This document shows, piece after piece, positions 7,056 through 52,940 of a DNA stretch of 64,000 nt. The DNA is taken from contig NC_057718.1 in the NCBI RefSeq assembly GCF_004010195.1, forward strand, positions 59,044,838 to 59,108,837, in the 5' to 3' direction. Within the stretch, counting starts at the first letter, position 1. Each line of letters starts with the position of its first letter. The notes under the pieces are model-generated. The model saw only the letters and a list, made by a program, of their open reading frames with translations, did no database searches and had not been told where the DNA came from. A program made the position numbers and the translations under genes. The stretch comes from Chiloscyllium plagiosum (lineage: Eukaryota).

Positions 7056-8467
7056 CACAGAAGAAGTGGTGCCACTGAAGGGCTTGTGAAAGTACAGTTA
7101 AAGGAGCAGGGTGCAGGATTGCTACTTTACATAGTAAAAGGCAAATACCCTGCATTTATCAAACTGGGACTTGGTTAATAGGCTAGTGGACTCAAACGTG
7201 AGTTTGCAAGAGATTCTGAACAACTATAAAGATGTTTTCAAAGGAACCCTGAGGGAAATGAGTCAAGATTGAATTACAGCTGAAGTTATAGGCTAGTCCC
7301 AGGAGTCTGAAGGCATGTTCAATACCATACACCATCTGGCCTAAAGTGGAAGCGGAACTGGTGAATCTGGGAGTATTGGAACCAGTAACCACCAATGAAT
7401 GGGCCACTCCCATTCTTCTGGTCTTAAAAAAAACAGATAGCGCAGTGAGGATTTGCAGTAACTTTAAGGTGACAGTCAATCTAGCCCTGAGTACAGATCA
7501 ATACCTCCTTCCACTCATAGAAAACCTAATGCGTTGACTGGAAAGGGGAGTGAAATTTTTAAAAATAGATCTGTTCCAGGCCTAGCTACAGATGGGGGTC
7601 ACAAAGGCGTCTCAGCCGCTACTGACGATAGTGACACACAGCAGACTTTTCTGCTACAAGAGACTTTCTTTCGACATCATGTCTGCACCAGTTCAGTTTC
7701 AAAGGGCAATGGATCAAATATTAAGTGGGTTCCCGGGACTCCAGGGTTATCTAGATGATATTTCAATTACTTGACCCTCTGAAGAGGAGCATTTTAAAAA
7801 TGTAGAAAGAATCCTAGAAAAATTGTAGAAGCATGGCCTACAAATAAAAAGAGAGAACAGCAAGTTTAAAAAAATAAATTCAATAGAGTTCCTGAGCCAT
7901 CTAATCAATGGCGAAGGACCACACAACACGGCCAAAAAGGTGAAGGCTATCCTGAATGCCCCTTGACCAGAGAATGTGTCTCAACTGAGATTGTTCTTAA
8001 GACTTGCAAATTATTATGGTAAATTTGTGCTTGATCTGGCAACTGTGCTAAAACTGCTATATCGGCTGTTGGGAAAAGGGTGGAAATGGACCCAGGAATG
8101 TGAAGCAAGCCTTAAACAGGTCAGAAGTGTCAAAGCATTTCAACTTGAAGCTGCCACTGTAATTTTGCGTGTGATGCCTCATCTTATAGGTTTGGCACTG
8201 TACTGTCACACATCTTACCAAATGGAGAGGAAAGGCCCATTGCCTCTGCATTGAGGCGACAAACAAAAATGGAGGAGAATTATGCTCAAGTCACAAAAGA
8301 AGGATTGGGCATTGTGTTTGACATTAAAACGGTCACTCATTTCCTTTACAGTAGGCGCTTTGTGCTGCTTACTGAGCACAAACCTCTAAACTCCATTTTT
8401 GGGCCAAATGTGGGGGTACCATGAATGGGCAGTAAATCTGTCAGCCTACTCTTTTGAGATCAATGAT

Positions 8468-8598
8468 CAGGTGAAAGTGAGGACTGCAGATGCTGGAGAT
8501 TAAAGTCAAGAGTGTGATGCTGGAAAAGTACAGCAGGTCAGGCAGCATCCGAGGAGCAGGAGAATTGACGTTTCGGGCAAACGCCCTTCATCAAGAAT
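8468..8598 (-). mobile_element. Penelope-derived terminal-repeat fragment with a mutated hammerhead core
   Basis: Same repeat as 11601, 24758, 27387 and 52706. The minus strand reads TTGATGA-AGGGCGTTTGCCC-GAAACGTC (first core C lost). It splits the Gypsy SAYSFEI|KYR sequence. Confidence 0.75.
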
Positions 8599-9230
8599 TA
8601 GATGAAATATCGACAAGTGGAGAAGCATGGCTTTGCAGATGCCCTGTCAAGGTTATCACTACCTTAACAAAGAATAAAGATGTTCCTGACTAGAATCTGA
8701 AAATTATGCACTTTTCCCAGGATGACAAGGCACCAGTGTCAGCAAATCAGGTGCAGAATGCTACTCAAAATGACCTGGTTTTCAGCCAAGTGGTGGGCTT
8801 GGTCCTGAGAGAGAGCAAACTGCCCAGAATTACACCCTCATCTGTCCAGGAGCTGTCCATATCAGTTGGGTATTTAATGTGGGCAATGAGTTGTTATTCC
8901 TTCCTTGTTAAGAGGAAAGGTGCTGAAACAAGTGCACCAAGAGCTCTCTGGCATGATGTGAATGAAAGAGATAGCCAGGAGCAATTTTTATTGGTGAATA
9001 TGGACTTCCACATTGAGGATAAAGTAGGATTATATGAATCCTGTGCATTACTAAGAAAGGTGCCGTGGGAAAGGCCTTGATCATTGTGGTAGCAAATTCA
9101 TGTAAATTTTTCAGGATCAGTACAGGGACAGATGGACAGGAAAAGAGACAGACTAGTGGCTGTGGATGCCCACTCCAAGTGGCTCAAGGTGGTAGTCAGT
9201 ATCGGCGGATGAAATATTTGCCAGGTTTGG

Positions 9231-10807
9231 GAACAAGTGGGAATTAATGAAAGAAACTACGAGACCCCTTGCAGAAATATTTGAATCATCTATAATTATT
9301 AGTGAGGTGCGTGATGACTGGAGGGTGGCTAATGTTGTACATTCATTTAAGAAAGATTGTAAGGGGAAAGCGGAGAACTATAGACCTGTGAGTCTGACTT
9401 CGGTTGTGAGTAAACTGTTGGCAATGATTTTAAAAGACAGGAACTATGGACATTAAGAGACACAAAAATTGATTAGGGATAGTCAGCATGGTTTTGTGCA
9501 ATGAAAAGCATGACTCACAAATTCGACTGAATTTTTTGAGGAAGTTACTAAAAAGATTGATGAGGGCAGGGCAGTAGATGTTGTTTACTTGGAGTTTAGT
9601 AAAGCCTTTGACAAAGTTCTGCATAATAAACTAATTACTAAAGTTAAGTCACATGGGTTTCAGGGTGAGCTTGCCATTTGGACACATAATTGGCTTAATG
9701 GCAGGAGACAGAGTGGTGATGGAGGGTTACTTTTCCGACTGGAGGCCTTCCAGCAGCAGGGTTCCACAGGGATCAGTTCTGGATCCTCTTTTCTTTGTCA
9801 TTTATATAAACTATTTGGATGAGAATATAGAAGATATGGTTAGTAAAGTTTGTAGACAATAACAAAATTGGTGGCATAGCAAACAGGGAAGAAGGTTTTC
9901 TAAGATTACCAAGGGATCTTGATCAACTGGGTCAATGGGCTGAATAATGGTAGATGGAGTTCAGTCTGGATAAATGTGAGGAATTGTATTTTGGTACAAC
10001 AAACAAGGATAGGGCTTACATAATTAAAGGCACATGTTGTAGAACAGAGGGATGTAAGGGTTCAGGTACATAATTCTTTGAAATATAGGTCACATATAAA
10101 TAGGGTAGTTAAAAAAGTGTTTGGCAAACTTGCCTTCATTGCTCAATCCTTTGAGGAAATGAGTTGGGAAGTCATGTTGAGGTTGTACAGGATATTGGTG
10201 AGGTCTCTTCTGTGTCCAGTTCTGGTCACCCAGTAATAGGAAGGATATCAAGCTCGAGAGGGTTCAGAGGAGATTTACCAGGAGGTTGCTGGGTATGGAA
10301 GGTTTGAGTTATAAAGAAAGGCTGGATAGGCTAGGAATTCCTTTCACTGGAACATAGGAAGTTGACAGGCAATCTTAGAGAAGTTTATAAAATAATCAGA
10401 GGTATAGATAGAGTTGATGGTAGCTGTCTTTCCCTATGACGAGGAATTTCAAGACTGGGGGCACTTTTTTTAAGGTTTAAAAAAAGAGATTTAAAAAGGA
10501 CAGGGAGGTACAAATCTTTTACACAGAGGGTGGTTCACATGTGGAATGAACTTCGTGAGAAAGTGATGGTTGTGGGTACAATTACAATTTTTGTAAACCT
10601 TTTTGATAAGTACATGAATAAGAACGGTTTGGAGGGGTATGGGCCAGGAGCAGGTAGGTGGGATTAGTTTGGTTTGGTTTGGATTAATTCAAACTAATCC
10701 AAATTAGTTTGGATTCGGCAATTCGAACTATTACCGAATCCAAAGGTTTGGCATGGATTGAATGGACTGAAGGATCTGTGTCCATGCTGTATGACTCTAT
10801 GACTCTA
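9231..10807 (+). mobile_element. 5'-truncated CR1 LINE nested in the Gypsy integrase
   Basis: RT motifs ([38 protein letters not shown]) and a (TATGACTC)n tail. The Gypsy integrase resumes immediately after it. Confidence 0.9.
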
Positions 10808-11600: not shown

Positions 11601-11822
11601 GAAAGTGAGGACTGCAGATGCTGGAGATCAGAGCTTAAAAATGTGTTGCTGGAAAAGCGCAGCAGGTCAGGCAGCATCAAAGGAACAGAAGAATCAACGT
11701 TTCGGGTATAAGCCCTTCTTCAGGAATGAGGAGGGTGTGCCATGCAGGCTAAGATAAAAGGAGAAAGCTGGAGAAATCTGCATTCATCCCTTGTGGTTGG
11801 AGGGTTCTAGGTGGAAGATGAG
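11601..11822 (-). mobile_element. Short Penelope-derived element with hammerhead core and 12-bp TSD
   Basis: TSD GCAGTCTATGGA at 11589-11600 and 11823-11834. The minus strand reads CTGAAGA-AGGGCTTATACCC-GAAACGTT. Confidence 0.8.
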
Positions 11823-11849
11823 GCAGTCTATGGACAAACATCTTGTACA

Positions 11850-12025
11850 AGGGCAGAAACTGCACGAAAAGCTCAGCAGCTCTTGCAGCATCTGTGGAAA
11901 GAAATCAGAGTTGACGTTTTGGGACGAGTCACCCTTCCTCAGAGTTCTGCCTGACGTGCCTAGCTTTTCATGCAATCTCTGTTTCTGTTCCGGCTTTCCA
12001 GCCCCCGCAGTTCTTTCAGTTTTTA
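11850..12025. mobile_element. Palindromic Penelope-related repeat, older subfamily
   Basis: Imperfect inverted arms (gcagaaactgcacgaaaagctc / gcttttcatgcaatctctg). Degenerate minus-strand core CTGAGGA-AGGG..CCC-AAAACGTC. Similar to 32565-32780. Confidence 0.6.
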
Positions 12026-12243: not shown

Positions 12244-15200
12244 CCTGTTTCTGCAGGAGTGTGGGATACCGCACCTCAGCAGCTACAGGAGATGGTCGAG
12301 CTTGTGGGCCCATGGGCCGTCAGTTTGGTTGGGTGGGCAACGATAGCCGCGCCTCCGGCCTGGGTATCCTGTTGCGAGGAGGCAGCTTCACCATCTCCGA
12401 GGTTAAGGAGGTGGTGGGCGGGCGCCTCCTCGTCACCGACGTCATGTACAGGAATGCTCCCCGAGACTGATTAATGTGTATACCCCAGCGAGTAAGAGTG
12501 AACGGTTGGCCGTCCTGCAGCAGCTTCCACTGTTGCTGGCTACATCCAGGCCGGTCATTCTGGCCAGAGACTTCAACTGTATCATTGATGCAGATGGACA
12601 ATCCGGCGGGGGGGACATGGTTAAAGATGCCAAGCTGCACGACGTCTTCAGCAACCCCTGCAGATGGAGCACAGCGTAGATACACCTGGTCACGGGCAGA
12701 CGGGTCTATCCGCTCAAGGATAGACTACCTGTTTGTTTGTGTCCCGAACACGCTCGGTCAGATCCATCGACGTCAAGCCGGTGTTCTTCTCTGACCACTG
12801 CATCCTGCTGGCTGACTGTCACCTACAGGACGAGCAGCGGGCTGGTAAGGGAACGTGGAAGCTGTTGACCCTGTGAAACATTGAGGAGCTCAAGAGGGAC
12901 TACACAGGTTGAAGAACCGTGAAGCCCCTCTTTGAGTCCCCAGCGGACTGGTTGGAAACAGTAAAAGGGAACATCAAGAGGTTCTTTATCCTCAAAGGTG
13001 TTCAGGAGGGCGAGAGAGAGGCGGGGAAAACTGTCCCAGCTCCAGGAAAGGATGCAGAACCTGCTCCTGCTGCAGATGATGGGGGTCGATGTCACGGAGG
13101 ACCTCAAGGAGGTGAAGGGCCAGCAAGTCTCGCTCTTTGCCTTGGAGGCCTCCAAGATAATCTTCCGGTCCAGGGTCCGCTCGGTGGAGCAGGACGAGAC
13201 GTGCTCACGTTTCTTCTTCCACAAGGTGCACAAAGAGAGCTCTGTGCTCAGTAACCTGAAAGAAGAAGATGGCTTGATAACGTCATCTCAGGCTGACGTC
13301 ATGAGAATCAGCAAATCCTTCTATGCCAGTCTGTATGACGCGAAGCCGACCGACAGCGTTGCCTCCCAGTCGTTCCTGTCCTCTATCACGGAGGTCCTAG
13401 ACGACAGAACACGCGAGAGGCTGGACCAGCCGCTATCTCTGGATGAGCTGACCAAGACCCTCGAGTCCTTCGAAAAGAGTAAAACTCCCAGAAGCGATGG
13501 CTTACCGGTCGAGCTCTATTCTGCTCTGTGGGACTTGATTGGCCAGAACCTGCTGGAAGTGTATGTCAGTATGCTTCGGGCAGGTACCATGAGTGAATCC
13601 ATGAGGAAAGTCATCACCACCCTCATCTACAAGCGGAAGGGGGAGAGGGAAGAACTCAAAAATTGGAGACCAATCTCACTGTTGAATGCGGATTACAAAA
13701 TTCTGTCTAAGGTAATCGCCATTCGGATCAGGTCTGCTCTGGGGTCGGTGATTCACCCTGACCAAACTTGTGCTGTGCCGGGCAGGAAGACTGCTGAGAG
13801 TCTCGCACTCCTCAGGGATACGATCGCCTACATGCAGGACAGAGGGTTGGACACCTGCCTGATCAGCCTGGACCAGAAGAAAGCCTTTGACAGGATATCA
13901 CACAGATATATGAGAGATGTTCTCTCCAAAATGGGCTTTGGGGAGGGAATCTGCAATTGAATCAGACTGCTCTACACCAACATTGTCAGTGCAGTCTCAA
14001 TCAATGGGTGGGAATCAGATAGCTTCCCAGTCAGATCTGGATTCAGGCAGGGCTGCCCTCTTTCTCCTGCCTTGTTTGTGTGCTGCATAGAGCCATTTGC
14101 CGAGTCCATCAGGAAGGATGCGAGCCTGAGAGGGGTGACTATTCCTGGCAGCGTGGGCCTGCAGATTAAGGCCTCCCTGTACATGGATGAGGTCGCCGTT
14201 TTCTGCTCGGATCTGCTGTCCGTGCGCAGACACATGTGCATATGTGACCAGTTTGAACGGGCCTCGGGGGCCAAGGTAAACCGAGGCAAGAGCGAGGCCA
14301 TGCTCTTCAGGAACTGGGCCGACCAATCCTCGATCCCCTTCACTGTAGGACCGACCACCTGAAGGTGCTGGGTATTTGGTTCGGGAGGGTTGGGGCGTGC
14401 GCCAAGTCTTGGGAGGAGCGTATCAGCAAAGTGAGGCAGAAACTAGGCAGATGGAAGCTATGGTCACTCTCCAAGGCGGGAAAAAACCTGGTCATCAGGT
14501 GTGAGGCACTGTCATTGCTATTATACGTGGCACAGGTCTGGTCTATTCCCAGAACCTGCGCTGCTGCAGTCACCAGGGCCATCTTCCAGTTTATATGGAG
14601 GTCAAAGATGGACCGGGTCCGAAGAGACTCGCTGTACAAAGATCTGGGCAACGGGGGAAAAAAATACACCCAATGACACCCTCATCCTGATGGCCACCTT
14701 TGTGTGTGGCTGCATCAAGCTGTGCGTGGATCCCCGGTACCCAAGTGTCACTATGTACTGAGGTTCTACCTGTCCTCGGTGTTGCGAAGGATGGGCCTGG
14801 CCTCGNNNNNNNNNNNNNNNNNNNNNNNNNNNNNNNNNNNNNNNNNCACCTTTGACCACAAGTCCATTAGGAAGTGGTCAGCACGTAGTGTCCTTGAGAC
14901 CCTTTGGGAAAAGGAGAGGGCGGATCCTATCGAGTGGTTCCCTGAGCAGACTGTCAAAGCCATTTGGCAGAATGCCTCATCGCCAGAACTTTCCAACAAG
15001 CACCAAGACATGGCTTGGCTGGTGGTGAGAAGGGCTCTGCCTGTGAGATCCTTTATGCATGCCCGGACTCTCAGCTGCACCGCACGCTACCCTCGAAGCG
15101 GCTGCGGGGGGAAACGAGACTGTCCCACACCTCCTTCTGGAATGCACCTACGCAGAAGAAGTCTGGAGAGGAATGCAGTGGTGTTTGTCGAGGTTCGTCC

Positions 15201-15686
15201 CGAGCAGCGCCGTGACACGGGACTCCATGTTCTACGGCCTGTTCCCTGGGATGCACACTGAGATGAACATCAACCGTGCCTGGAGGATCATCAACTCGGT
15301 GAAGGATGCTCTCTGGGTGGTCCGACACCTGTTGATCTTCCAGCTGAAGGATTTGACCCTGACTGAGTGTTGCAGACTGGCATATTCCAAGGTCCAGGAC
15401 TACGTGTTGAGGGACACGCTGAAGCTTGGGGTGGTTGCTGCCAAGGCGCAGTAGGGAAAGACCACCGTGTAATGTCTGCTGCCTAAAGAAGAACAGGGGG
15501 CCCGTGCAGTCATTTGGGCTCTGCTGACGCCTCAGCTAAAAATGTAATCGTACAGACCTGTAAATAGGAATGATTACTTTATTTCGGTGTGCAAAGAAAT
15601 GGAATGTTTACATATGTATGGCATGTCCAACTGTACAGACCATCAAAGTATTTTATGAATAAATGTATATTTTTGAAATAAAAAAA
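12244..15686 (+). mobile_element. Tx1/L1-clade non-LTR retrotransposon, 5'-truncated ORF2 (APE endonuclease, RT, C-terminal Cys-His region)
   Basis: EN motifs (LFLQE, DFNC, SRIDY, SDH), a 320-aa RT-containing ORF at 12998-13960 (NWRPISLLNADYKILSKV, LDQKKAFDRISH), RQGCPLSP, YMDE, ET..HLLLEC. Ends in AATAAA plus an A-rich tail. Imperfect TSD GAGAACAT (12236) / GAGAACGT (15687). GC- and CpG-rich, so relatively young. Confidence 0.92.
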
Positions 15687-18499: not shown

Positions 18500-18645
18500 A
18501 AGAAGAGCAGGAAAATCGACATTTCAGGCAAAAGCCCTTCATCAGGAATAGAAACAGGGTGCCTGCAGAGTGGAGAGATAAATGAGGGCAGAGGAGATGA
18601 CCTGAGGGTTGCAGTGAGAGAAAGAGACTCACTGAGATTCTTGTA
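18500..18645 (-). mobile_element. Internally deleted Penelope remnant with hammerhead core
   Basis: The minus strand reads CTGATGA-AGGGCTTTTGCCT-GAAATGTC at about 18514-18549. The flank matches 27480-27520. Confidence 0.7.
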
Positions 18646-21600
18646 AGCTTCCACATAATTCCTATAATGTGGTGACTAGAACTGAACGCAGTACTCCAGT
18701 GTGGCCTTACCAGTGTCTCATACAGCTGAAGTATGACCTCGTGGCTCCAAAACTCAATTTCCCCTGCCAATAAACACCAACACACCATATGCTGCCTTAA
18801 CAACCTTATTAACCTGGGTGACAACTTTCAGGGATTAATGCACTGGACACTGAGATGTCTCTGTTCATCAACACTGCCAAGAATTTTACCATTAGCCCTC
18901 TACTCTGCATTCCTTTTTTTTTTCTGAAGTGAACTACCTCACACTTTTCCGCATTAAACTCCATTGCCACTTCTCCGCCCAGCTCTGCAACTTATCTATG
19001 TCCCTCTGTAACCCATAACATCCTTCACGACTTTCTACAACTCTGCCTACCTTAGTGTCATTTGTAAATTTACTAACCCATCCTTCTATGCCCACATCCA
19101 GATAACTTATAAAAACGACAAACAGCAGTGGCCCCAGAACAGATCCTTGCGGCACACCACTGGTAACTGAGCTCCAGGATGAACATTTCCATCAACCACC
19201 ACCTCTGTCTTCTTTCAGCAAGCCAATTTCTGATCCAATTTGCTAAATCGCCTTCAATCCTGAAACTCTGTATTTTGTGCAATAGCCTACCTTGTGGAAC
19301 ATTATCAAACTCCTCACTTAGGTTCATATACACCACATCAACCACTTTATCTTCATCCACCTGTTTTGTCACCTTCTTGAAGAACACAATAAGGTTAGTT
19401 AGGCATGACCTACTCTTCACAAAACCCTGTTGACTGTCTCTAATCAAATTATTCCTTTCCAAATGATTATAAATCCTATTTCTTATAACCTTTTCCAACA
19501 CCTTACCCACAACCAAAGTAAGGCTCACTGGCCTATAATTACTGGTGTTATGTCGTCTCTCCTTAAGGGAACAACATTTGTTATCCTCCAGTCTTCTGAC
19601 ACTTCTTCTGTTGACAATGATGACATAAAGTTCAAAAGCCAAAGACTCTGCAATCTCCTTCCTGGCTTCCCAGAGAATCTGAGGATAAATCCCATCTGGC
19701 CCAGGGGTCTTATCCATTTTCAGATCTTCCAAAATCACCAAAACCTCCTCATTGACAATCTCAATCTCATCTAATCTAGTAGCCTGTATCTCCGTATTCT
19801 CACTAACATTGCCCTTTTCCAATGTAAATACTGACAACAAGTATTCATTAAGTGCTTTCCCTCTATCCTCAGATTCCACACACAACTTTCCACTATGATC
19901 TTGGTCCTAATCTTACTCTAGTCATTCTCTTATTCCTAATATACCTATAGAAGGCTTTAGGGGTTTTTTTTGCTCCTATTCGCCAACAACTTCTCATGTC
20001 CCCTCCTGGCTCTTCTTAGCCCTCTCTATTGATCTTTTCTGGCTAACTTGTAACTCTCAAGCCCTCTAACTGAGCCTTCATGCCTCATACTCACATAAGC
20101 CTTCTTCTTCCATCTCAACTTCTTTAGTAAACCATGGCACCCTCTCTCGACAACTACCTCCCTGCCTGATAGGTCTCTCCTATTCAAGGAACCGCAGTAG
20201 CTGTTCCTTGAATAAACTCCACATTTCAAATGTGTCCATCCCCTGCAGTTTCCTTCCCCATCCTATGCATCCTAAATCTTGTCTAATCACATCGTAATTG
20301 CCTTTCCCCCAGTTATACCTCTTTCCCTGCGGTATATACTTATCCCTGCCCATTGCTATTGGAAATGTAACTGAATTATGGTCACTATAGCCAAAGAGCT
20401 CACCTACCTCCAAATTTAACACCTGGACGGATTCATTCCCCAGTACCAAATCCAATATGGCATCTCCCCTTGTTGGCCTGTATACATACTGTGTCAGAAA
20501 ACCCTCCTGCACACATTGAACAGAAACTGATCCATCTAAACTACTTGAACTATAGTCAATGTTGGAGAAGTTAAAGTCCCCCATAACAACTACCCTGTTA
20601 CACTTGCTCCTATCAAGAATCATCTTTGCTATCCTTTCCAGGACATACCTGGAACAATTCAGAAGCCAAAAGAAAACTCCTAAAAGGGTGACCTCTCCTT
20701 TCCTGTTTCTAACCTCAGCCCAAACTACCTCAGTGGATGAGTCCTCCCATGTTACATCAGCTGCTGTAATACTACCCTTGATTAACAAAGCACCCCCCAC
20801 CTCCTTTACCATCTTCTCTGTTCTTCCTGAAACATCTAAATACCAGAATCTGCAACAATCATTCCTGTCCCTCCTCCAGCCATGTCTCTGAAGTGGCCAC
20901 AACATCGAAATCCCAGGTGCCAACCTGTGCAGCAAGTTCACCCACTTTATTCCGATGCTTCTGGCATTGAAGTCCGCACATTTCAAACCAACACCCTGAT
21001 TGCCGTTGCCCTCTCGCGACCTTCTAAACCTATCCCTGACCTCACTACCCTCAACCTCCTACACTGGAACTACAATTCAGGTTCCCATCCCCCTACAGCA
21101 TTAGTTTAAAACCCTCCGAAGAGCATTAGCAAATTCCACCCCCAAGGATGTTGGTACCCATCTGGTTCAGGTGAAGACCATCCTTTTTGTTGAGGTCCCA
21201 CCTTCCCCAGAAAGAGCTCCAATTATCCAAGAATCCAAAACCCTCCCACCTGCACCATCCTTACAGTCATATGTTGAGCTCTGCTCTCTCCCTGTTGTTT
21301 CACTAGCATGTGGCACAGGCAACAAACCAGAGATCACAACTCTGTTTGTTCTAGCTCTAAGCTTCCACCTTAACTCCCTGAATTTCTGCCTTAGATCCCC
21401 ACCTTTTCTTCCTACCTATGTCATTGGTACCTATGTGGACCATTACTTGGGGCTTCTCCCCCTCTCCCTCAAAGATCCCGAAAACACGATCAGGGACATC
21501 ACGAGCCCTGGCACCTGGGAGGCAACACACCAATCGTCAGTCTCTCTCGTTCTCACAGAACCTCCTATCTGTCCCACTAACTATGGAGTCCCCAATGACT

Positions 21601-22120: not shown

Positions 22121-23611
22121 TTCACCAGAGATTCTTAGGCAAAGGCCTCCCTGTTACAAACCTGTCAGCAATCTTCAAATTGATCAATGTAGAAAATCGC
22201 AATTATAACCACTTTTTTTACAGGACTGAATGCCATTTTCTATAGTTTAAATGCCATGCGGGCACCTTGGCAGCTCCTGTGAAAGGGGAAGTGAGGAAGT
22301 AGGGTGAGAGATGGCACGAGTCCAAGTAAGTGGAAGCGTACTTAGAATAGGATTAGAGGTGGGGGGGAAGGTTGATTCAGGGTTTGTCAGGTGGAGAAAC
22401 TGGTCTAGACAGGTTGGGGGATGTAGTCCCAACCTGGGTATCAGTTTAGTGTTGGTTTGCGAGGTGGGTGTCCATTCTGGGACAGTGCTGTGTGGTGGGA
22501 TGTTGAGGATTAGTGAGAGTGGAGTTAGATGTTCAAAGGTTGAGAATTAAGTTCATTAATTACCTTGGGGTTAGAATAGGCTTTTAACCTTTCCTGGGTA
22601 ACTATAAAGCTTAAGTGAGTCAGAACCCTCCAAAGTCTCTGAATATAAGGATGTTTTCCAGAGAGTTTCAGGTGCAGGGGAATTGTCCATTAGAATTTCC
22701 AGTGTTATGGCAAATGCCTCAAAATCAGTTGTGTGTCAAGAATTTTGCATGGTTCCAGCACACAACTCAGTCCAATTTCTCTAATGATTCTCTAGCTGTC
22801 GGAATGTCTGGGCGTAATAACCTATATTAACCATATGCGTTGCATCTGCCTAACCTAATAACTTCACACTTCTGTTGAACCAGGAAGCCTGATTCTGCTG
22901 AGGGCATTGCCAGTAAATGATTGACTGTCACCTGCTGTATTGAGTTTAAGCAGGCACAGTGCACGCTCTTTTAGTTCACAAGGAACAGGGTCCTGTGTAT
23001 AATTTGTGCATATCACTTCTAGTGCATGCAAGTACGCTAAATTGATTGTCAGTATAATTCTTTCACATCCAGAATTATCTGTGGTGGTGCTACTGAGTCG
23101 TTGTTATTGATGTACATTGAATTCTCCAACTTGCATATGTTCTGATCCCTTGCAGCCTTTGGCTCTTTAGAACCATTCAAATTCATCAACTTGATGAGAA
23201 GGTGATGGGAAATGTTGGGTTTACAACAAGAGGTTTCTTTGCCAATATTGACCTGCTGCCCTGAGATCCATAATTGGTTTTCAAAGCTAGACAAAAGCTG
23301 GAATACTGCCGATTTTGGATATTCTAAAACAAAACAAAAAGTGCTAGCAATACTAAGCAGGTCAGGCTGCAACAGTGGAGAGGACAGAATTAAAATGTGT
23401 CTGTTATAAGGGTGCCAGTGAGCGAGGAGGAATGTGGGCCAGATAAATGATAGTGCTCAGGGTAAGTCAAGTTAGGTCTGAGAATTTGGAGACTGGAAGG
23501 TGAAGTTGTCAGGTTTGGCAGCAGCGGAGAAATGTCAAATGCTTGAAGATTTTGGGGTGTGGGAAGATGTAGGTTGGGAAGAGATTTGGTGTCAGGGTAG
23601 TGGCGGATGAA

Positions 23612-23952: not shown

Positions 23953-24757
23953 TAGTAGGTATTGGAAGGTTGGGGAGGAGGGAGGGGTAAAGAATAGGTT
24001 TTGGGAGGCAGAAGGTAGAATAGGTGTTAGGATGTGGGAGGGTGGTGTTAGGTCAGGGTCTTTGAGATATTGGTGGCCTCAGTGGGGTATAATTGCGGAA
24101 TGTATGGTGTCAGTTTAATAGTTATTTAGGAGTTACACTAAGTATTTAATTACAATTTTTGAGAAGATTTGTAGCTCAGGTTGGTAAGTATGTAAGTTAG
24201 CTTGCTGAGCTTGAAGGTTTGTTTTCAGATATTTCATCACCACACTAGGTAACATCAGTGAAAGTCTCTGGTGAAGCGCTAGTGGTATGTCCTGCCTCTT
24301 TATTTATAGATCTTGGTTTCTTAAGGTGGGTGATGTCATTTCTGGTTCTCTTTTTCCAAAGGAAGGTAGATAGGGTCTAAACCGATGTGCTTATTGATGG
24401 AGTTCTGGTTAGAATGCCATGCCTCTAAGAATTCCTGAACACCATCAAAGACACCAAGATAGAAAAGGACGAAATAATGGTCTCTTTTGACGTTACAGCC
24501 CTTTTTACATCAATTAACGTTGCCCTGGCCAAAGAAACACTGGCATCACTACCACAACCAGGACCACAAACAGCAGACAGCACCAACGTCATGAGCAAAG
24601 ATAACATCCTCAACCTGGTGAACCTGTGCCTCACTACCCACTTCACATTCAATAAGAAAACCTACAAACAAATCGATGGAACACCCATAGGATCACCAGT
24701 ATTAGGGCTCATAGCAGAAGCAGTAAAGCAGAGACTTGAACAAGCTGCCCTCCCATT

Positions 24758-24969
24758 ACTCTATGCTACTCTCTCCCCACCCCCACCCTCCTTTAGCTTA
24801 TCTCTCCACGCTTCAGGCTCTCTGCCTTTATTCCTGATGAAGGGCTTTTGCCCGAAACGTCGATTTTGCCTGTCCTCGGATGCTGCCTGAATTGCTGTGC
24901 TCTTCCAGCACCACTGATCCAGAATCTGGTTTCCAGCATCTGCAGTCATTGTTTTTACCTCATTGTTTT
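24758..24969 (+). mobile_element. Short hammerhead-bearing Penelope terminal repeat nested in the Penelope RT, 12-bp TSD
   Basis: TSD TGCCCTCCCATT at 24746-24757 and 24970-24981. The host RT reading (QAALP|FIQPKLWVRYVDD) resumes after it. Confidence 0.88.
24830..24865 (+). ncRNA. Minimal type I hammerhead ribozyme motif
   Basis: CTGATGA (24834-24840), an extra A, stem II GGGC-TTTT-GCCC, GAAA (24854-24857), palindromic ACGT stem III and a GTC cleavage triplet ending at 24861. Stem I is short and imperfect (attc/gatt). Activity is not demonstrated. Confidence 0.72.
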
Positions 24970-27386
24970 TGCCCTCCCATTTATCCAACCTAAACTTTGG
25001 GTCCGCTACGTCGATGACATCTTTGTCACAAAACGGAACAAATTAGAGGAATCATACAACACCATCAACAATATCCTGATGGGCATAAAATTCACAAAAG
25101 AGGAGGAGAACGCCAACAGACTCCCATTCCCAGATGTGACAGTTTAACATATAGTTAATAGAGAGCTTCAAATTAGCGTCAACAAAAAAACAACACACAT
25201 GGACCAAATACTTGACTTCAGAAGCAATCATCCCAACACCCATAAACGGAGCTGCATCGCGACATTATTTCAATGAACTACATCACAATGCAGCACCCAC
25301 GAACTACATAAAGAAGAAAAACATACTCAATAAACACAGTCTGCCAATTCCTTAGAAACGAACCCAAACAAGCAGACACTACGCAACCAAAAACTATAGC
25401 CACATTACCTTACATCAAAGACATATCAGAAATGACTTCCAGACTACTCGGACCCCTTGGCATAATGGTAGCTCACAAACCTACCAAAACACTTAAACAG
25501 TGACTAATGAACCTAGATACCACCAGCAAAACTAACATCATTTATAAGATACCATGAAAGAACTGTAACAAACACTACCTCAGACAAACTAGCAGGAAAC
25601 TTGCCACCAGGATACATGAACACCAACTAGCCACCAAAAAACACGACCCACTATCACTAGTTTCTATACATGCAAACAGACAAAGACGGACACCACTTTG
25701 ACTAAAACAACACATACATCCTAGGACAGGTGAAACAAAGGCATGCACAAGAATTCTTAGAGGCTTGGCATTCTAACCAGAATTCCATCAATAAGCACAT
25801 CGACTTAGACCCTATCTAAGTTATGTTGGAAAAGAAAGGAACAGGAAATAACATCACCCACCTTAAACCAAGACCTATAAATAGAGAGGCGGGACATACA
25901 TCCAGAGACTCTCACTGATGTTACATAATATGGTGACAAAATGTCTGAAAACAAACCTTCAAGCTCAGCGAGGTAACTTACATACTTAAGTATTTAATTG
26001 TATACTTTTCCCGAGTAACATAATTAACTGCAGAATTACTTAGCTCCGAATTCTCTGATTTTAAACAGATATTTTTGGAGGGTTCCAGGTTTAAGGGAAT
26101 TGCCCAACAGAATATTCAATTTCCTGGAAAATTCCCTTGGATTCAGCTCCGATGAGGATTCTGCCTGGTCTTCGTGCACAAATCCTATTTATGTTGCAGA
26201 AATGACTGCCTGGCCATCGGAAAATCTGACCCAGATCTGAAAGCTCCTTAAAGAAATTCAATAATTTGGTCAGATATAAGCTGCTCTTATTGACCCAGTC
26301 CTGAGTTTGATGAATGAGCCTTTATTCTTCTAGATTTCTTATGTCTTCCATCATTAATGTTTCCAGCACGTACCTCCCCCCACCCCAGACTCCTGTATTG
26401 AGGCCAGGTTCACAAGTAATTTGAAGTTGGATTCCTTCAAAATGGTTTAACTATAATGCATTCACAATTCTTATGTTCTATTTCATTAGTATGTTGCCTG
26501 ATTGCAATGCATTTTTAAAATATATTTGAGAGACTTTGTGATCTCAACCAATTCCACCAGCATCCTTTGGATGTTTTGATTATAAGTTAACAGAGTCTTT
26601 CACAAACATAAGGAGCAATCTGAGTCTGTTGTCGCTGCCTTTTCATAAAGGTTCAGGCTTGACTGGATAAAATCGTGCTATTGGAAAATGAGAAACCAGA
26701 GATTAAAGGAACAAACATCATGGAAGTTGCTTGCAATATGTTAGTTGTTCCTTGAGTCCCATGAGCAACATGTACTTCTCTGCTTCTTTAACCTACTCTT
26801 GCACACCATCCCAACTGTTAAAGTTTGTCTATCTCCAATGGTGAAAACCTGTTGGATACCTCATGCTCCATTGATTTCTATTTCTTTCTACTTTCTTTAC
26901 CTGACGCATTGACTACAGCCTATCTATTATTGCTTGCTGGTCTACCTCTCACATGTAGGTGAAGACAACCTCGTGGAACATCCCTTTTAGACACTTTTTT
27001 TTCTTGGTTGTGTACAGTGTCCTGTGGAGCTAGTTAGTTATTTAGTCCAAAAATGTATTTCTTGAGGGAGTCACTTACTTGGCATTAGAAGGCATATCCC
27101 TTTGGATTCTTTGCAGATCCAAGATGACCCACATCCTGTGTGTCACACATTCAGGAAGCTTAACACCCACATTGACATCTTGATTCCAGTCAGTTTAAAA
27201 AGTCTCAATTTTTTTTCTTCTAGACTTACCTTTTACTTCCTACTGTCAAAAGCTTACTCCAAGTCTCTAAATATAATACATTTTAACTTTGTTTTAAAGT
27301 TAATTATGTGCAGTATAACCTTCAAGGTCTGTCCTGAAGGGAGAAATCTGAACTTTACACAAAAGGCAAATCCAGTTTCTACTTCA

Positions 27387-28163
27387 TTCTGAATTAGTGG
27401 TGCTGGAAGAGCGCAACAGTTCAGGCAGCATCCGAGGAGCAGTAAAATCAACGTTTCAGGCAAAAGCCCATCATCAGGAATAAAGGCAGAGAGCCTGAAG
27501 GGTGGAGAGATAAGCTAGAGGAGAGTGGGGGTGGGGANNNNNNNNNNNNNNNNNNNNNNNNNNNNNNNNNNNNNNNNNNNNNNNNNNNNNNNNNNNNNNN
27601 NNNNNNNNNNNNNNNNNNNNNNNNNNNNNNNNNNNNNNNNNNNNNNNNNNNNNNNNNNNNNNNNNNNNNNNNNNNNNNNNNNNNNNNNNNNNNNNNNNNN
27701 NNNNNNNNNNNNNNNNNNNNNNNNNNNNNNNNNNNNNNNNNNNNNNNNNNNNNNNNNNNNNNNNNNNNNNNNNNNNNNNNNNNNNNNNNNNNNNNNNNNN
27801 NNNNNNNNNNNNNNNNNNNNNNNNNNNNNNNNNNNNNNNNNNNNNNNNNNNNNNNNNNNNNNNNNNNNNNNNNNNNNNNNNNNNNNNNNNNNNNNNNNNN
27901 NNNNNNNNNNNNNNNNNNNNNNNNNNNNNNNNNNNNNNNNNCAGGTAGTCACGGAGGGAATGGTCTTTGCGGAAGGCGGAAAGGGGTGGGGAGGGAAACA
28001 TATCCCTGGTGGTGGGGTCTTTTTGGAGGTGGCGGAAATGTTGGCAGATGATTTGGTTTATGCGAAGATTGGTAGGGTGGAAGGTGAGCACCAGGGGCGT
28101 TCTGTCCTTGTTACGGTTGGAGGGATGGGGTCTGAGGATGGAGGTGCGGGATGTGGACGAGAC
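27387..28163 (-). mobile_element. 5'-truncated Penelope-like element with a hammerhead-bearing 3' repeat, 15-bp TSD; contains an N gap
   Basis: TSD CCAGTTTCTACTTCA at 27372-27386 and 28164-28178. ORF remnant LTFHPTNLRINQII..HFRHLQ.DPTT..FPSPPLSAFRKDHSLRDYL is typical of the PLE RT-to-GIY-YIG linker. Core reads CTGATGA-TGGGCTTTTGCCT-GAAACGTT. Confidence 0.85.
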
Positions 28164-28687
28164 CCAGTTTCTACTTCAGCTGTATACAGTGACTCTGAAG
28201 CTCATCTCAGTTGCAGTTGAAATGAAAATCTAAGCAATTAAGGTTTGTTCGTGGGGGCAGAGTTCTCGTCAATGAAGTTAACTTGGTTCCTCCTCACTCA
28301 TCGCATGGGCTTAATCATGAAGAAGGCATTTTATAGAAGCAAGCCATTAAAATTAGAGCATGGAAACTAGTTAAACAAAACGGTAGTCAGGAGTGGATAT
28401 GCAAAATTTTCATTGAGATAAAATGTACTTTTCTGAGTACAGTGAACAAACCAAATCCAACCTCTGCAGGAATTAGGTATTACACAAAGATCTGCTATCT
28501 GTCCTTGTGATGCATGGCCATACAAAACAATCTCATTTCTGCTTGGGAGATCCTGGAGTTTGGGGCTGTACCTGGTGCTGTTGCGATTTTGCTTTGCTTC
28601 GTTAGCCTTTTTAAATTATGCTGGGAACAGCTAAAGGGTGATTTTCCTTATTGCCCATGCCAAAGGTTTTTCTGTAGTTCAGCTGGA

Positions 28688-31719: not shown

Positions 31720-32564
31720 TGGGAGGAGAAGCGTTGGGACTGCCACTCTGCATCTGATTTGTAGATTTATTTCACACACCGAGGACGTTTTGTCAAAGAT
31801 TGTGGGGTTTCCCTGTACTGGCATCCTTCATTTGATAGGTATATTTGCTGTTCTGTTCTGAAGAGACTAGCAGAGGAAGAAGAGAAACACCAGATTTTTA
31901 GGCTACAATATTTTTGCAAGGTTCCCTTTGACATTACACTTTTTAAAAAAAATGCATCAATAAGGAAGGTTTGACATGAATTGATACTTGGGAAAGATTT
32001 TCAGACTGTAAGATAAATGTATGGCACATGTCGCACTTGAACAGTTTGTGGATCTTTGGAATTCTCTATCTCTGACTGTGGGTATTCCATTATTGAGTAT
32101 CATCAACCTGACATAACAAGAGTTTTTAGGACAGTAAGAGAATTGATGAATAAGGGAGTGAGATGGGAAAATAGAACTGATATAGAAGTTCAGTCCAGAT
32201 CTTAGAGAATGGTTGAACAGCCTTGAGGGACTGTCTGGTTCACTCCTGCTCCTATTATATTCTTGTGAAGAAAACTATACCAATTTTTTTCATTTTAATT
32301 CTCAAAATAAGTAAGGAATGAAGGCTTGTTCTGAAACTTGTAATATATTTTTAATATCGATGTTTGCTCCTTGTCTTGCCTGAAATTTGCTGAGGTACAG
32401 TTTCACAGAAGTTGGCAGCCCCTTAGAACCTTATGTAAAAGACTGTCCAAAGGCATGAACCTTGCCAGTCATTGGCCTACTTGATTTTTTTATATATAAT
32501 AACGGAAGTGGCAACTGGAGGTCCAGTCCTCATGTAATACAATAGGAATTCCAGAGAAAACCCC

Positions 32565-32780
32565 ACAAAAACTGCGGATGCCATAAATCAGAAACGAAAA
32601 TAGAAGTTGCTGGAAAAGCTCAACAGGTCTGTTAGCATCGTTTGCCAGTTAGTAGACTACATTCAGCAGGCTTCTGCAGTGTTCTGAGGAATGGTCACTG
32701 GACCTGAAACGTTAACATTGATTTCTCTTCACAGATGCTGCCAGACCTACTGAGGTTTTTCAGCAACTTCTGTTTCTGTG
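32565..32780 (+). mobile_element. Palindromic Penelope-related repeat containing a hammerhead core
   Basis: Inverted arms agaagttgctggaaaagctcaacaggtctg / cagacctactgaggtttttcagcaacttct. Confidence 0.7.
32677..32720 (+). ncRNA. Minimal hammerhead ribozyme motif with a 7-bp stem I
   Basis: CAGTGTT-CTGAGGA-AT-GGTC(ACTG)GACC-T-GAAAC-GTT-AACATTG. Stem I CAGTGTT/AACATTG pairs fully with one G-U; the cleavage triplet is GTT. Confidence 0.62.
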
Positions 32781-36699: not shown

Positions 36700-39122
36700 A
36701 GTCATTGGTGTATAGGATCGAGGAAAACCCAAAGGCTTTCTATAAATATGTCAGGAATAAAAGAATGACTAAAGTAAAATTAGGGTCAATCAAGGATAGT
36801 AATGGGAAGTTGTGCGTGGAGTCGGAGGAAATAGGAAAGTGCTAAATGAATATTTCTCATCAGTATTCACACTAGAAAAACACAATGTTGTCAAGGTGAA
36901 TACTGAGATATACAGGCTACTAGATTAAATGGGAGTGAGGTTCACAAGGAGGACCTTAGCAATTCTGGAAAATATAAAAATAGACAAGTCCCTTGGGCCG
37001 GGTAGGATTTATCCTAGGATTCTCTGGGAAGCTAGCGAGGAGATTGCTGAGCCTTTGGTGTTGATTATGTCATCATTGTCTACAGGAATAGTGCCAGAAG
37101 ACTGGAGGATAGCAAATGTTGTTCCCTTGTTCAAGAAGGGGAGTAGAGACAACCCTGAAAATTATGGACCTGTGAGCCTTTCTTCAGTTGTGGGTAAAGT
37201 GTTGGAAAGGGTTATAAAAAATAGGATTTAAAATCATCCAGAAAGGAATAACTTGATTGGAGATGAGGATCTAAAATATGGATTTAGGCTTTTGTCAGGA
37301 GCAACCATTTTAATGCATGCTTTTACCAACTACAAAATGGCTTCTTAATGCAAGTAACATAAAATGGCTTCTAGGAGCAATGGCATCTAACTCTGCTGAA
37401 AACTGCATTCCTGAACTAATTGAAAGAGATTAGCAAACAATGCCCTGTTCATAATATGAATTAACTGAGCAAGATAGGACATTATTAAAGTATCCGAGCT
37501 GGTCTTGTAGACCCAGGTGGAGAGGGATTAAAAACATGCAAACAAGTCAGTTCCCAGGAAAAACCATTGGCTTAATTTTATGTCTATTTGTCATTTTATT
37601 TCATTTTATTGGAGTAATTTTGAAATTAAGGCTGTTCCGTTTGTTAAGAGACCTAGAAAAGTTGATTGTGTTTTAAGATTGTGTGCAGCTTTTGCAGAGT
37701 ACACAGAGGTACTTAACCCTTGCATTGCTGGATAACCTATGCCCAGCGTCGTAATAAATTGTTAAAACTTGCTAAAGGAGACCGAGCACTAGTGTTTATT
37801 TGACTGATCGCAGAACTGAGAGGCTCCTCTTGGGAGTCCAAATTTACACGGATAGTCAACATGGTTTTGAGAAGGGTAGGTGATGCCTCACAAACCTTAT
37901 TGAGTTCTTTCAGAAGGTGACCACACAGGTGTATGAGGGTAAAGCAGTTGATGTGGTGTATATGGATTTCAGTAAGGCATTTGATAAGGTTTCCCATGAT
38001 AGGCTATTACACAAAATATGGAGGCATGGGATTGAGGGTGATTTAGGGGTTTGGATCAGAAAATGGCCAGCTGAAAGAAGACAGAGGGTGGTGGTTGATT
38101 GGAAATATTCATTTTGGAGTTCAGTTACTAGTGGGGTTCCACAAGGATCTGTTCTGGGTCCACGGTTGTTTGTCATTTTTATAAATGACCTGGATGAGGG
38201 TGTAGAAGGATGGATTCATAAATTTGCAGATGACACTAAGGTCGGTAGAGTTGTGGATAATGATGAAGGATATTGTAGGTTACAGAGGGACATAAATAAG
38301 CTGCAGAGCTGGGCTGAGAGATGGCAAATGGAATTTAATGTGGATAAGTGTGAGGTGATTCATTTTGGAAGGAATAACAGGAATGCAGAGTACTGGGCTA
38401 ATGGTAAGAATCTTGGTAGTGTAGATGAGCAGAGGGATATCCATGAACATAGATCCCTCAAAGTTGCCACGCAGGTTGATAGGGTTGTTAAAAAGGCATA
38501 TGATGTGATAGCTTTTACTGGTAGAGGGATTGATTTCGGAGCCACGTGGCCATGCTGCAGCTGTACAAAACTCTGGTGCGGCCACACTTGGAGTATTGTC
38601 GACTGTTCTGGTCACTGCATTGTAGGAAGGATGTGGAAGCTTTGGATAGGGTTCGGAAGAGATTTACTGGGATGTTGCCTGGTATGGACAGAACGTCTTA
38701 TGAGGAAAGGCTGAGGGCCTTGAGGCTGTTTTCGTTGGAGAGAAGAAGGTTGAGAGGTGACTTAATTGAGGCATATAAGAGGCATATAATATAAGAGGGT
38801 TAGGTAGGTTGGACTGTGAGAGCCTTTTGTCGTCTGATGGCAATCACTTGCACAAGGGAGCATAGCTTTAAATTGAGGGGCGATAGACATGGGGCAGATT
38901 TCAGAGGTAGTTTCTTTATTCAAAGTAGTAGGGGTGTGGAACGCACTGCCTGCAACAATAGTAGACTCGCCAACTTTAAGGGCATTTAAATGGTCATTGG
39001 ATAGGCATATGGATGAGAATGGAGAATAGTGTAGGTTAGATGGGCTTCAGATTGGTTCACAGGTCGGCACAACATTGAGGGCTAAAGGGCCTGTACTGCG
39101 CTGTAATGTTGTATGTTCTATA
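36700..39122 (+). mobile_element. 5'-truncated CR1 LINE in the FANCL intron, interrupted at 37264-37848
   Basis: RT ORFs 36929-37231 and 37917-38714 ([31 protein letters not shown]); tail tatgttctat. Confidence 0.9.
37264..37848 (+). mobile_element. Probable solo LTR inserted in CR1
   Basis: 585-bp non-CR1 block with TG...ACA ends and an internal AATAAA near 37753. It splits the CR1 LI|DSQHGF motif. No clean TSD. Confidence 0.55.
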
Positions 39123-39884
39123 TTCAGCTTGTCATTCCTGAAGAAAGCTTTTGCCCCATAATTGTATCCTTTTCATGAACTCTTTTTGTTTTTGTTTTCC
39201 TTTTCAAATATTTGCCAATTTGCTTTTAAATGCATTTTGCTTAGACTGACCCATTAGAGTAAAACATCTTCTAATATGGTGCATTTAACAAAACATAACT
39301 CTAACCTTTTCATCAACGTTTGGTGATAATCTTATGTGTCATGATCACAACTCATTGATGAAGAGAAATGACATTCCCTATTTGTTATCAAAATCTTACA
39401 TAATTGTGAAAATCAGACCACCTCTTAATATTCTATAATGAATTAAACTTCTTGCCCCTGTTAATTCATCTCTAGTGGATTGTCTCCAGGGCATTCACGT
39501 TATTCTTAAAGTAGAAATTCAAAATTGGACATAATCTTACTGCAGTTTTTATTAATATAGTTAATTGATTTAGATTTAGCATTTTTTCCTTCTGTACTGT
39601 GCTATTTATAAAACCTAGGATTTCAAATGTTTTTAAATGTAACTTTATCGATTTGACCTTCATTTTTAAAGGTGCAATTACTGTGAATTCCTGAATCTTC
39701 GTGTTCTTTTATTCTTTTCAATGTATTACCACTTTTTAAAATCATTTTATATCTATTTTCTTACCTTAACTTGTCTTTTCATTTATCAGGCATTTTCCTA
39801 CCCATTTATCTATTAGGATGAAAACTGTACAATTTTTATGTGAATGCAATTTTTAGAATTTTGATGTCAAAATGACAGTAGATG

Positions 39885-46940: not shown

Positions 46941-46949
46941 TGGACCACA

Positions 46950-52705: not shown

Positions 52706-52940
52706 GTGTCAAGATTAGAGTGGTGCTGGAAAAGCACAGCAGGTCAGGCAGCATTGGAGAAGTAGGAAAAATTGACGTTTAGGGCAAAAGCCCTTCATCA
52801 GGAATTCATTTCCTGATGAAGGGCTTTTGCCTGATAGGTCGATTTTTCTTGCTTCTCGGATGCTGCCTAACCTGCTGTGCTTTTCCAGCACCACTCTAAT
52901 CTTGATTCTGATTTCCAGCATCTGCAGTACCCACTTCTGC
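52706..52940. mobile_element. Palindromic Penelope-derived element with two back-to-back hammerhead cores, 15-bp TSD
   Basis: TSD CTTTAAAGATTTTCA at 52691-52705 and 52941-52955. Inverted arms of about 97 bp (52709-52805 / 52810-52905) meet at a loop of a few bases. Confidence 0.9.

What the first reader, a model, noticed from the sequence alone, without database searches (positions are those of the whole stretch)
24758..24969. Dispersed family of small hammerhead-ribozyme-bearing retroelements with their own TSDs
Seen: one 130-240 bp repeat recurs at 8468, 11601, 18500, 24758, 27387 and 52706. Each carries CTGA(T/A)GA, a stem II hairpin and GAAACGT(C/T), or a one-base variant. Four copies have perfect TSDs (12, 12, 15 and 15 bp). 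The copy at 24830-24865 has an intact core. Established: Penelope-like elements carry minimal type I hammerheads with a palindromic stem III thought to act as dimers, and an extra A after A9 is tolerated in some natural hammerheads. Inference: the copy at 27387-28163 ties the repeat to a Penelope ORF, so the ORF-less copies are either heavily 5'-truncated insertions or a non-autonomous retrozyme-like family. Their density (6 in 64 kb, plus older relatives) implies a very large genomic ribozyme family in this shark.
Basis: partly seen in the sequence, partly recalled or inferred. Interest (0 to 1): 0.75.

Follow-up and report, generated by a model that had tools for sequence, protein, structure and literature searches.

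The report
Hammerhead-bearing Penelope retrotransposon end pieces
The short repeats are real insertions of the last 100-220 bases of a Penelope-like jumping gene, which carries a small hammerhead ribozyme motif just behind its protein-coding part; this kind of element is already described, most copies here are likely inert, and many start just in front of the motif, which may mark where the copied RNA begins.

Summary
Observation confirmed: six loci (seven arms) carry a minimal type I hammerhead core, none in shuffled controls, and the four perfect target-site duplications are real. They are end pieces (pLTR, with or without the ~35-nt tail) of a Neptune-type Penelope-like element in a carpet-shark-like genome. 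One copy starts in the last endonuclease codons, one TSD-bracketed unit holds a linker piece 89% identical to bamboo-shark RT/GIY-YIG proteins, and a zebra-shark protein reads through into the hammerhead. The 52706 locus is a head-to-head pair with a tail on one arm, a published Penelope hallmark. No tandem arrays, so not retrozymes. 5' ends are not simply random: in two DNA runs about 1,000 contigs each begin at 24830, four bases before the core, and none of the shown piles lies at the cut site. Likely cause: internal priming at the tail and run-off at the RNA start (inferred). Stem I is weak and the monomer is predicted to misfold; cleavage is untested. Known since Cervera and De la Pena 2014; this scan already noted the same family many times in this genome.

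The parts
24758..24969 (+). Focal insertion: 76 nt of 3' UTR, hammerhead, pLTR and tail, ending in a 10-nt slip duplication
24830..24865 (+). Minimal type I hammerhead motif; C3=24834, extra A=24841, stem II 24842-24853, palindrome 24857-24860, C17=24861
24746..24757 (+). TSD, left copy (12 bp)
24970..24981 (+). TSD, right copy (12 bp)
24925..24959 (+). Optional tail (about 35 nt), present in some copies and absent in others
27387..28163 (-). Longer 5'-truncated copy: RT-thumb/linker coding piece 28163-27942, 404-N gap, 3' UTR, hammerhead (C3=27477), no tail; 15-bp TSD at 27372-27386 and 28164-28178
11601..11822 (-). Copy that starts in the last ~20 codons of the GIY-YIG endonuclease (one frameshift), short 3' UTR, hammerhead (C3=11723), tail; 12-bp TSD
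52706..52940 (.). Head-to-head pair: minus arm (C3=52801) without tail, plus arm (C3=52813) with tail, 11 nt between the two cores; 15-bp TSD
8464..8599 (-). Short copy starting 5 nt before the core, with tail; C3 changed to U; 7-bp TSD with one mismatch; inserted in a Gypsy-like pol remnant
18500..18581 (-). Decayed copy with upstream 3' UTR, broken off about 14 nt after C17; no TSD found
24185..25988 (+). Host of the focal copy: older Penelope/Poseidon-type element remnant (RT, GIY-YIG, inverted 5' copy)

Best explanation
The repeats are TSD-flanked insertions of the 3' end module (hammerhead motif, pLTR, optional tail) of a Neptune-type Penelope-like retrotransposon, likely made by that element's own RT/GIY-YIG protein priming at one of two internal sites about 65 and 100 nt behind the predicted cut site. 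Shown: the core, the TSDs, the two 3' end classes, the head-to-head pair, the link to the ORF. Inferred from the anole element (PMC11167929): the protein nicks the target and starts reverse transcription inside the RNA at the two ends of the tail; priming on both nicked strands would give the inverted pair with a tail on one arm. Inferred here: priming in the downstream pLTR with early stop gives the scattered longer copies (5' ends at -76, -99, -686 from C3), while priming in the upstream pLTR would run off the RNA's 5' end a few bases before the core and give the abundant 95-135-nt class. The hammerhead was probably selected in active founder elements and would cut 3' of C17 only as a dimer or with help from the element's protein; dispersed single copies decay like ordinary DNA and are probably inert.
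For: ORF link by three routes: 15-bp TSD around ORF piece plus repeat with the piece 89% identical over 74 aa to Chiloscyllium punctatum RT/GIY-YIG proteins; the 11601 copy begins in endonuclease C-terminal codons (best hit of a profile from 43 database proteins, E 2e-4, next 5.7); Stegostoma protein P0006 runs from RT through GIY-YIG and 124 further codons into an in-frame translation of the hammerhead. 3' ends after C17: +63, +68 (no tail) and +95, +100, about +103, +108 (tail); genome-wide loose ends with long unlike flanks at 24914 (451 and 420 contigs) and 24960 (346 in X9). 5' pile: top loose end is before 24830 in both DNA runs (1,024 and 990 contigs, median loose length 255, agreement 0.32, like the true 3' end at 0.34 and unlike subfamily divergence at 0.73-0.75); RNA read depth is flat at about 930-1,180 from 24911 back to 24832 (810 in one bin where this copy differs), then 300 and 132; 3 of 7 window arms start about 5 nt before the core. 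Core conserved among subfamilies: 87% mean identity at -4..+31 against 76% at +32..+90; of 40 shown variant rows only N7, loop II and CpG sites vary inside 24830-24865. Same architecture in metagenome relatives: 24 of 126 oriented hits have an endonuclease C-terminus on the same strand upstream (23 at 56-164 nt), and stem I positions 2-4, not part of the search pattern, pair in 90/83/56% of 41 clusters against 53/46/38% shuffled, 0 of 1,000 shuffles as high. Published: min-HHR in pLTRs incl. fish Neptune (PMC4209133); truncation, inverted 5' copy, tail on one end (PMC8557442, PMC3846280); TSS inside the pLTR (PMC2377424, PMC8557442).
Against: The 24830 pile is confounded: subfamilies differ upstream of it (11601 type is about 52% like the focal type over -34..-5), the last letters of the loose consensus match the 11601 type, RNA loose ends there agree at 0.47, and unitig assembly favours ends close to the aligned part; 732 loose-end rows and 16 variant rows were not shown. 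No transcription start was measured: table 6 lists no place where many RNA molecules begin or end, and RNA reads lie on both strands in similar numbers, as passive read-through would. No full-length or tandem element lies in the window, and the gap (404 N) is shorter than the roughly 440 coding bases plus UTR that an intact copy would need. Stem I of this family is weaker than the 4-5 bp described for most min-HHRs, and the monomer's best fold pairs U4-G8 with the cut-site strand (-11.4 kcal/mol each, against -10.3 for a whole active-type dimer, nearest-neighbour only).
Confidence: 0.72

Rival explanations
1. Ordinary random 5' truncation only: the pile at 24830 is an alignment edge, because subfamilies share the hammerhead but have unrelated 3' UTRs upstream of it.
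For: Focal and 11601 types diverge upstream of -4; loose consensus ends in 11601-like letters and RNA loose ends agree at 0.47; 4 of 7 window arms extend further and end at different places.
Against: DNA loose ends at 24830 are long and nearly as unlike each other as true 3' ends (0.32 vs 0.34); read depth does not fall between 24911 and 24832 as random truncation would predict; the 8468 copy's start at -5 is fixed by host reading frame and TSD, and the 52706 arms have only 11 nt between cores.
Confidence: 0.15
2. A discrete non-autonomous SINE-like or retrozyme-like family of about 130 nt, with its own master copies, is mobilised in trans by the Penelope protein.
For: Shared 5' end at 24830 and shared 3' ends; very high copy number; pLTR alone suffices for mobilisation in trans in rotifers (PMC3846280 passages); tandem retrozymes derived from pLTRs were counted in one chondrichthyan (bioRxiv 10.64898/2026.07.22.740005); 21 and 20 contigs share one inverted joint at 24830/24873.
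Against: The focal copy is not of the short class (5' end -76) and shares upstream sequence with the ORF-bearing copy; no tandem arrays in the window and only 4 and 6 contigs with a tail-to-head joint at 24959/24830 among shown rows; short copies occur in several subfamilies and in a second hammerhead family, which fits a by-product of each element.
Confidence: 0.1
3. Ribozyme cleavage defines the ends of the copied RNA (cut, possibly circularise, then reverse transcribe), so the copies are fossils of in vivo cleavage.
For: Model proposed in PMC4209133; core conserved among founders.
Against: No window arm of the family starts at 24862-equivalent; no shown loose-end pile and no depth step up at 24862; HHR mutants did not change insertion in vitro and no RNA-seq ends were seen at the cut site in anole (PMC11167929).
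Confidence: 0.03

Closest known systems
Minimal hammerheads (min-HHR) in pLTRs of metazoan Penelope-like elements, incl. fish Xena, Poseidon, Neptune (Cervera and De la Pena 2014, PMC4209133)
   Same: Type I core, extra base between A9 and 10.1, G10.1-C11.1, palindromic 15.2-16.2 with no loop 3, mostly single dispersed motifs from truncated elements, many families per genome.
   Different: Helix II is 4 bp (7-8 in the Schistosoma families), helix I only 2 bp plus a U-U and an A-U; abundance far above the 4,000-9,000 motifs reported for coelacanth and Xenopus if the window density holds; the parts read name no shark.
Endonuclease-positive PLE insertion architecture (Craig et al. 2021, PMC8557442; Arkhipova et al. 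2013, PMC3846280)
   Same: 5' truncation, TSDs, inverted 5' copy head to head, 30-40-bp tail on one end, hammerhead near the 3' end; Neptune-type CX2-5CxxC linker in the nearest proteins.
   Different: A frequent shared 5' end just before the hammerhead is not mentioned in the passages seen.
Anole Poseidon element PAc (Frangieh et al. 2024, PMC11167929)
   Same: Two internal RT start sites that bound the tail; both strands nicked; protein-assisted hammerhead.
   Different: PAc is Poseidon clade with its ORF starting inside the hammerhead; the shark element is Neptune-type and the position of its start codon was not found.
Non-LTR retrozymes (Li et al. 2026, bioRxiv 10.64898/2026.07.22.740005; PMC7229834 listing only)
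   Same: Type I hammerhead, pLTR origin.
   Different: Retrozymes are tandem arrays with at least two hammerhead units and no coding sequence; these are dispersed TSD-flanked single or inverted insertions, two with coding remnants.

Membership tests
min-HHR of metazoan PLEs | Core CUGANGA and GAAA with H at 17 | tested here: met
   Intact at 24834-24861 and 11723; one to three changes in the other five arms
min-HHR of metazoan PLEs | Unpaired base between 9 and 10.1, and G10.1-C11.1 | tested here: met
   Extra base in 7 of 7 arms; G-C in 4 of 7, G-U in 3
min-HHR of metazoan PLEs | Palindromic 15.1-16.1 with no helix III | tested here: met
   Self-complementary 4-mer in 5 of 7 arms
min-HHR of metazoan PLEs | Short helix I (4-5 bp typical; 2 bp in D. 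virilis) | tested here: inconclusive
   2 contiguous pairs, U-U, A-U in the focal copy; metagenome relatives with the same core have covarying 3-4 bp
min-HHR of metazoan PLEs | Located in the pLTR behind a PLE ORF | tested here: met
min-HHR of metazoan PLEs | Self-cleavage 3' of position 17 as dimer or with protein | not testable with these tools
   No RNA end pile in one poly(A) single-cell run, which is not a suitable assay
EN+ Penelope-like element, Neptune clade | Single ORF with PLE RT and C-terminal GIY-YIG | tested here: met
   By proxy: window pieces match P0001/P0004, which carry RVT_1 and GIY-YIG hits; no whole ORF in the window
EN+ Penelope-like element, Neptune clade | CX2-5CxxC linker between RT and EN (shared with Nematis) | tested here: met
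   By proxy: present in P0001, P0004, P0005, P0007 and 32 of 45 relatives of 850 aa or more; in the window this part falls in the N gap
EN+ Penelope-like element, Neptune clade | Placement in the Neptune clade on an RT tree | not tested
   No named reference set was available; the label rests on the linker and host group
EN+ Penelope-like element, Neptune clade | TSDs, optional 30-40-nt tail, inverted 5' copy | tested here: met
EN+ Penelope-like element, Neptune clade | Partial tandem pLTR-ORF-pLTR | tested here: inconclusive
   None in the window; a few tail-to-head joints in contigs
Non-LTR retrozyme | Tandem repeats with two or more consecutive hammerhead units | tested here: not met
   All window copies are single or head to head
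Non-LTR retrozyme | No protein-coding sequence | tested here: not met
   2 of 6 loci carry ORF remnants inside the TSDs
Non-LTR retrozyme | Abundant circular RNA | not testable with these tools
   Only a poly(A) run gave reads, on both strands

The most novel reading that the evidence does not exclude
The front edge of the hammerhead is the 5' end of the Penelope RNA. Internal priming at the tail then runs off after 95-135 nt and plants a 'strong-stop-like' cDNA, so that a shark genome holds on the order of 10^5 copies that record the element's transcription start and both priming sites, and head-to-head pairs record one protein dimer priming on both strands. A similar crowding of ends within about 25 nt before the core appears in several metagenome families, so the rule may be general for hammerhead-bearing Penelope elements and would explain why solo minimal hammerheads are so numerous in animal genomes.
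Probability: 0.4. Interest if true: 0.5.

Novelty: new member of a known kind. Interest (0 to 1): 0.22.

Why it matters
As a kind it is known. What a specialist could use: a shark Neptune-type family at very high copy number whose insertion ends give a genomic read-out of the still poorly understood Penelope mechanism (two priming sites, inverted pairs, a shared 5' end before the ribozyme and none seen at its cut site). That bears on the open question of what the Penelope hammerhead does in vivo, and it warns that counts of 'genomic ribozymes' in sharks are mostly counts of decayed transposon ends.

Tried and rejected
No whole genome is held, so the genome-wide BLAST was replaced by one lay of contigs and reads. 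Rfam: 11 weak matches, no hammerhead; the miRNA-like hits at 52757-52859 are the inverted pair. Pfam on the 74-aa window piece: no family; on the host RT piece RVT_1 at E 0.12 only. Exact family pattern in metagenome contigs: 0; general pattern in viral contigs: 0. No RNA holder was listed for the stretch; run X22 laid 0 of 8.3 million records; neither is evidence on expression. Folding z-scores of the focal motif are unremarkable (-0.32 for 61 nt, -1.32 for 135 nt). A search for full-length shark proteins whose N-terminus would show where the ORF starts relative to the tail gave only partial shark proteins. Summed contig depth (6.8 and 9.4 million at the core against about 13-15 for single loci) was not used as a copy number, as the tool warns. 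An initiator-like match (YYANWYY, recalled, not from a call) at 24828-24834 is too short to count as evidence. An 8-bp repeat at 8466/8746 was rejected as chance. Lunse et al. 2017 is not held; only its title was seen in a reference list. Supplement text of PMC11167929 gave no hits and its figures are not held; its Fig. S2 and the closed supplements of the 2026 preprint may already show 5' end profiles or shark counts.

Full report
Observation. The six loci are one repeat family. A core scan with a stem II requirement finds seven arms of this family and one of a second family; ten Markov-shuffled windows give none at up to one mismatch. The four perfect TSDs of 12, 12, 15 and 15 bp are real and beyond chance. 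The focal core, 24834-24861, is intact, with an extra A after A9, a 4-bp stem II, a palindromic 4-mer in place of helix III and C17 at 24861. Only 2 of 7 arms are free of changes at conserved core positions. Rfam has no matching model.

What the repeat belongs to. The 74 codons at 28163-27942 match 8 of 16 candidate proteins, best 89% to Chiloscyllium punctatum, 70% to Rhincodon and 65% to Stegostoma proteins; the nearest carry RT and GIY-YIG hits and the CX2-5CxxC linker that marks Neptune and Nematis elements (PMC8557442, passages). The same 15-bp TSD brackets this piece and the repeat, so they are one insertion despite the gap. Independently, the 11601 copy starts in the last codons of the endonuclease and reaches the core about 40 nt after them, and the Stegostoma protein P0006 reads on from the endonuclease for 124 codons into a translation of the hammerhead, the only such case among the 126 proteins held. 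The repeat is therefore the 3' end module of a Neptune-type Penelope-like element. The clade label was not tested on a tree. The host is inferred to be a carpet shark from these named proteins.

Ends. Inside their TSDs the copies end 63 or 68 nt after C17 (no tail) or 95-108 nt after it (tail); the 52706 pair has the tail on one arm only, and four pairs of a second family look the same by eye. A tail at one end and an inverted 5' copy are described for these elements (PMC8557442 and PMC3846280, passages), and in the anole element the tail lies between two internal RT start sites (PMC11167929, parts 1-2 of 4). 5' ends in the window lie at -5 (8468, fixed by host frame and an imperfect TSD), about -5 and -6 (52706 arms), -76, -99, -686 and at least -36 (18500) from C3.

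Genome-wide proxy. With no assembly held, I laid four runs on 24722-25021 at 80% likeness: 52,089 of 21.6 million and 51,854 of 25.2 million contig records in two DNA runs of two organisms, 2,020 of 13.0 million RNA reads in one run, 0 of 8.3 million in another. The commonest loose end in both DNA runs is before 24830 (1,024 and 990 contigs, plus 315 at 24831 in X1), with long flanks that agree at only 0.32; true 3' ends show at 24914 and 24960. RNA read depth stays near 1,000-1,200 from the pLTR back through the core and falls to 300 and 132 in the two bins before it. None of the 18 shown loose-end rows is at the cut site; 732 rows were not shown. Against this reading: subfamilies differ upstream of 24830, the loose consensus ends in letters of the 11601 type, and contig assembly favours ends near the aligned part, so the size of the pile is uncertain. 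RNA reads lie on both strands in similar numbers and no place where many molecules begin or end is listed. Of 40 shown variant rows, five fall in 24830-24865 (N7, loop II, three CpG-type sites) and 21 in the next 66 nt; some rows are private changes of this copy and 16 rows were hidden. In the window, arms are 87% alike across the core and 76% downstream. So the core is better kept among founder subfamilies than its flanks, while single copies decay. Seven arms in 64 kb would extrapolate to the order of 10^5 copies in a genome of several gigabases (size recalled; one window only).

Relatives elsewhere. A general core pattern found 121 metagenome loci in 9 of 64 parts of the collection. Among 126 oriented hits, 27 have a Penelope protein match and 24 have the endonuclease C-terminus upstream on the same strand; across 41 clusters (124 hits with enough flank), stem I positions 2-4 pair in 90, 83 and 56% with several pair types, against 53, 46 and 38% for shuffled partners (clusters may be related, so the shuffle count is not a probability). 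This supports selection on the hammerhead fold in this group. About half of the members of the ten largest clusters share 25 nt or less upstream with any other member, a weak hint of the same crowding of 5' ends, open to the same confound.

Activity. Stem I of the shark family is weak, and the best predicted monomer fold pairs U4-G8 with the cut-site strand; an active-type dimer scores -10.3 kcal/mol against -11.4 for each misfolded monomer (tertiary energy ignored). Published min-HHRs were inactive as monomers and weak as dimers (PMC4209133, parts 1-2 of 4), the anole one cut only with protein and was dispensable for insertion in vitro (PMC11167929), and 8 of 9 Xenopus dimers did not cut (bioRxiv 10.64898/2026.07.22.740005, parts 1-3 of 5). 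The focal copy is alone, inside a dead element, and probably inert.

Mechanism. Most likely the element's protein nicks the target and primes at either end of the tail. From the downstream pLTR it stops early at scattered places; from the upstream pLTR it would reach the RNA's 5' end just before the hammerhead. Penelope's start site lies inside the pLTR (PMC2377424, abstract and section 14; PMC8557442, passages), which makes this plausible, but no start was measured here. I noted this idea before seeing that earlier notes of this scan on the same genome say the same; those notes are not independent evidence.

Novelty. The kind is known since 2014. Searches for hammerhead+Penelope+shark, Penelope+bamboo shark, ribozyme+Chondrichthyes+retrotransposon and shark genome+Penelope+Neptune turned up no paper devoted to this family; the whale shark paper lists Penelope among superfamilies (PMC8455134, passages) and the 2026 preprint counts tandem retrozymes in one chondrichthyan. 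'Solo pLTR' had no occurrence in the 15 of 38 papers listed, although it occurs in PMC3846280 (2013). Subscription papers, Repbase entries and unseen supplements may cover the family. Verdict: real, new member of a known kind, interest 0.22.

Noticed in passing
window 11845-12020, 32560-32780, 51880-52075, 56563-56790: A second, older hammerhead family (longer stem II) present as head-to-head pairs; by eye each pair has the tail on one arm only, and only one arm keeps the front of the core. The 11845 pair directly abuts the 11601 copy's TSD region.
   Followed up: partly
window 24185-25988: The focal copy sits in the RT of an older Penelope/Poseidon-type remnant with GIY-YIG, an inverted 5' copy (24185-24437 vs 25748-25988) and a decayed hammerhead-like motif near 25913-25950 and, inverted, near 24245-24275: one Penelope clade nested in another.
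   Followed up: partly
window 23302-23392, 4921-4967: Further weak, core-less relics of the pLTR/tail region (nhmmer E 3e-5 and 7e-4).
   Followed up: no
window 5877-9080: Decayed Gypsy-like pol remnant (many stops and frameshifts) that hosts the 8468 copy.
   Followed up: partly
window 12300-15450: Long remnant of an L1/Tx1-type LINE by the look of its translations (endonuclease, RT, C-terminal zinc finger; label recalled).
   Followed up: no
window 24800-24817: Pyrimidine tract followed by CAG|G 18 nt before C3, also seen in the 27387 and 18500 copies; could be a 3' splice site like the intron end at helix I of Drosophila Penelope (PMC4209133). No joint seen there in the shown rows.
   Followed up: no
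joint 24830/24873: 21 and 20 contigs in the two DNA runs share an opposite-strand joint between the front of the hammerhead and a point about 12 nt after the cut site; whether the second arm really starts at the cut site could not be resolved because this copy differs from the family at 24866-24872.
   Followed up: no
L040, L047, L102, L113: Head-to-head hammerhead pairs with only 19-31 nt between the cores in unrelated metagenome families (L040 and L113 look like the same locus).
   Followed up: partly
window 9300-10800, 18645-21060, 36700-42190, 46945-47870, 49500-50290: Numerous CR1-type LINE remnants (label recalled from the RT translations).
   Followed up: no
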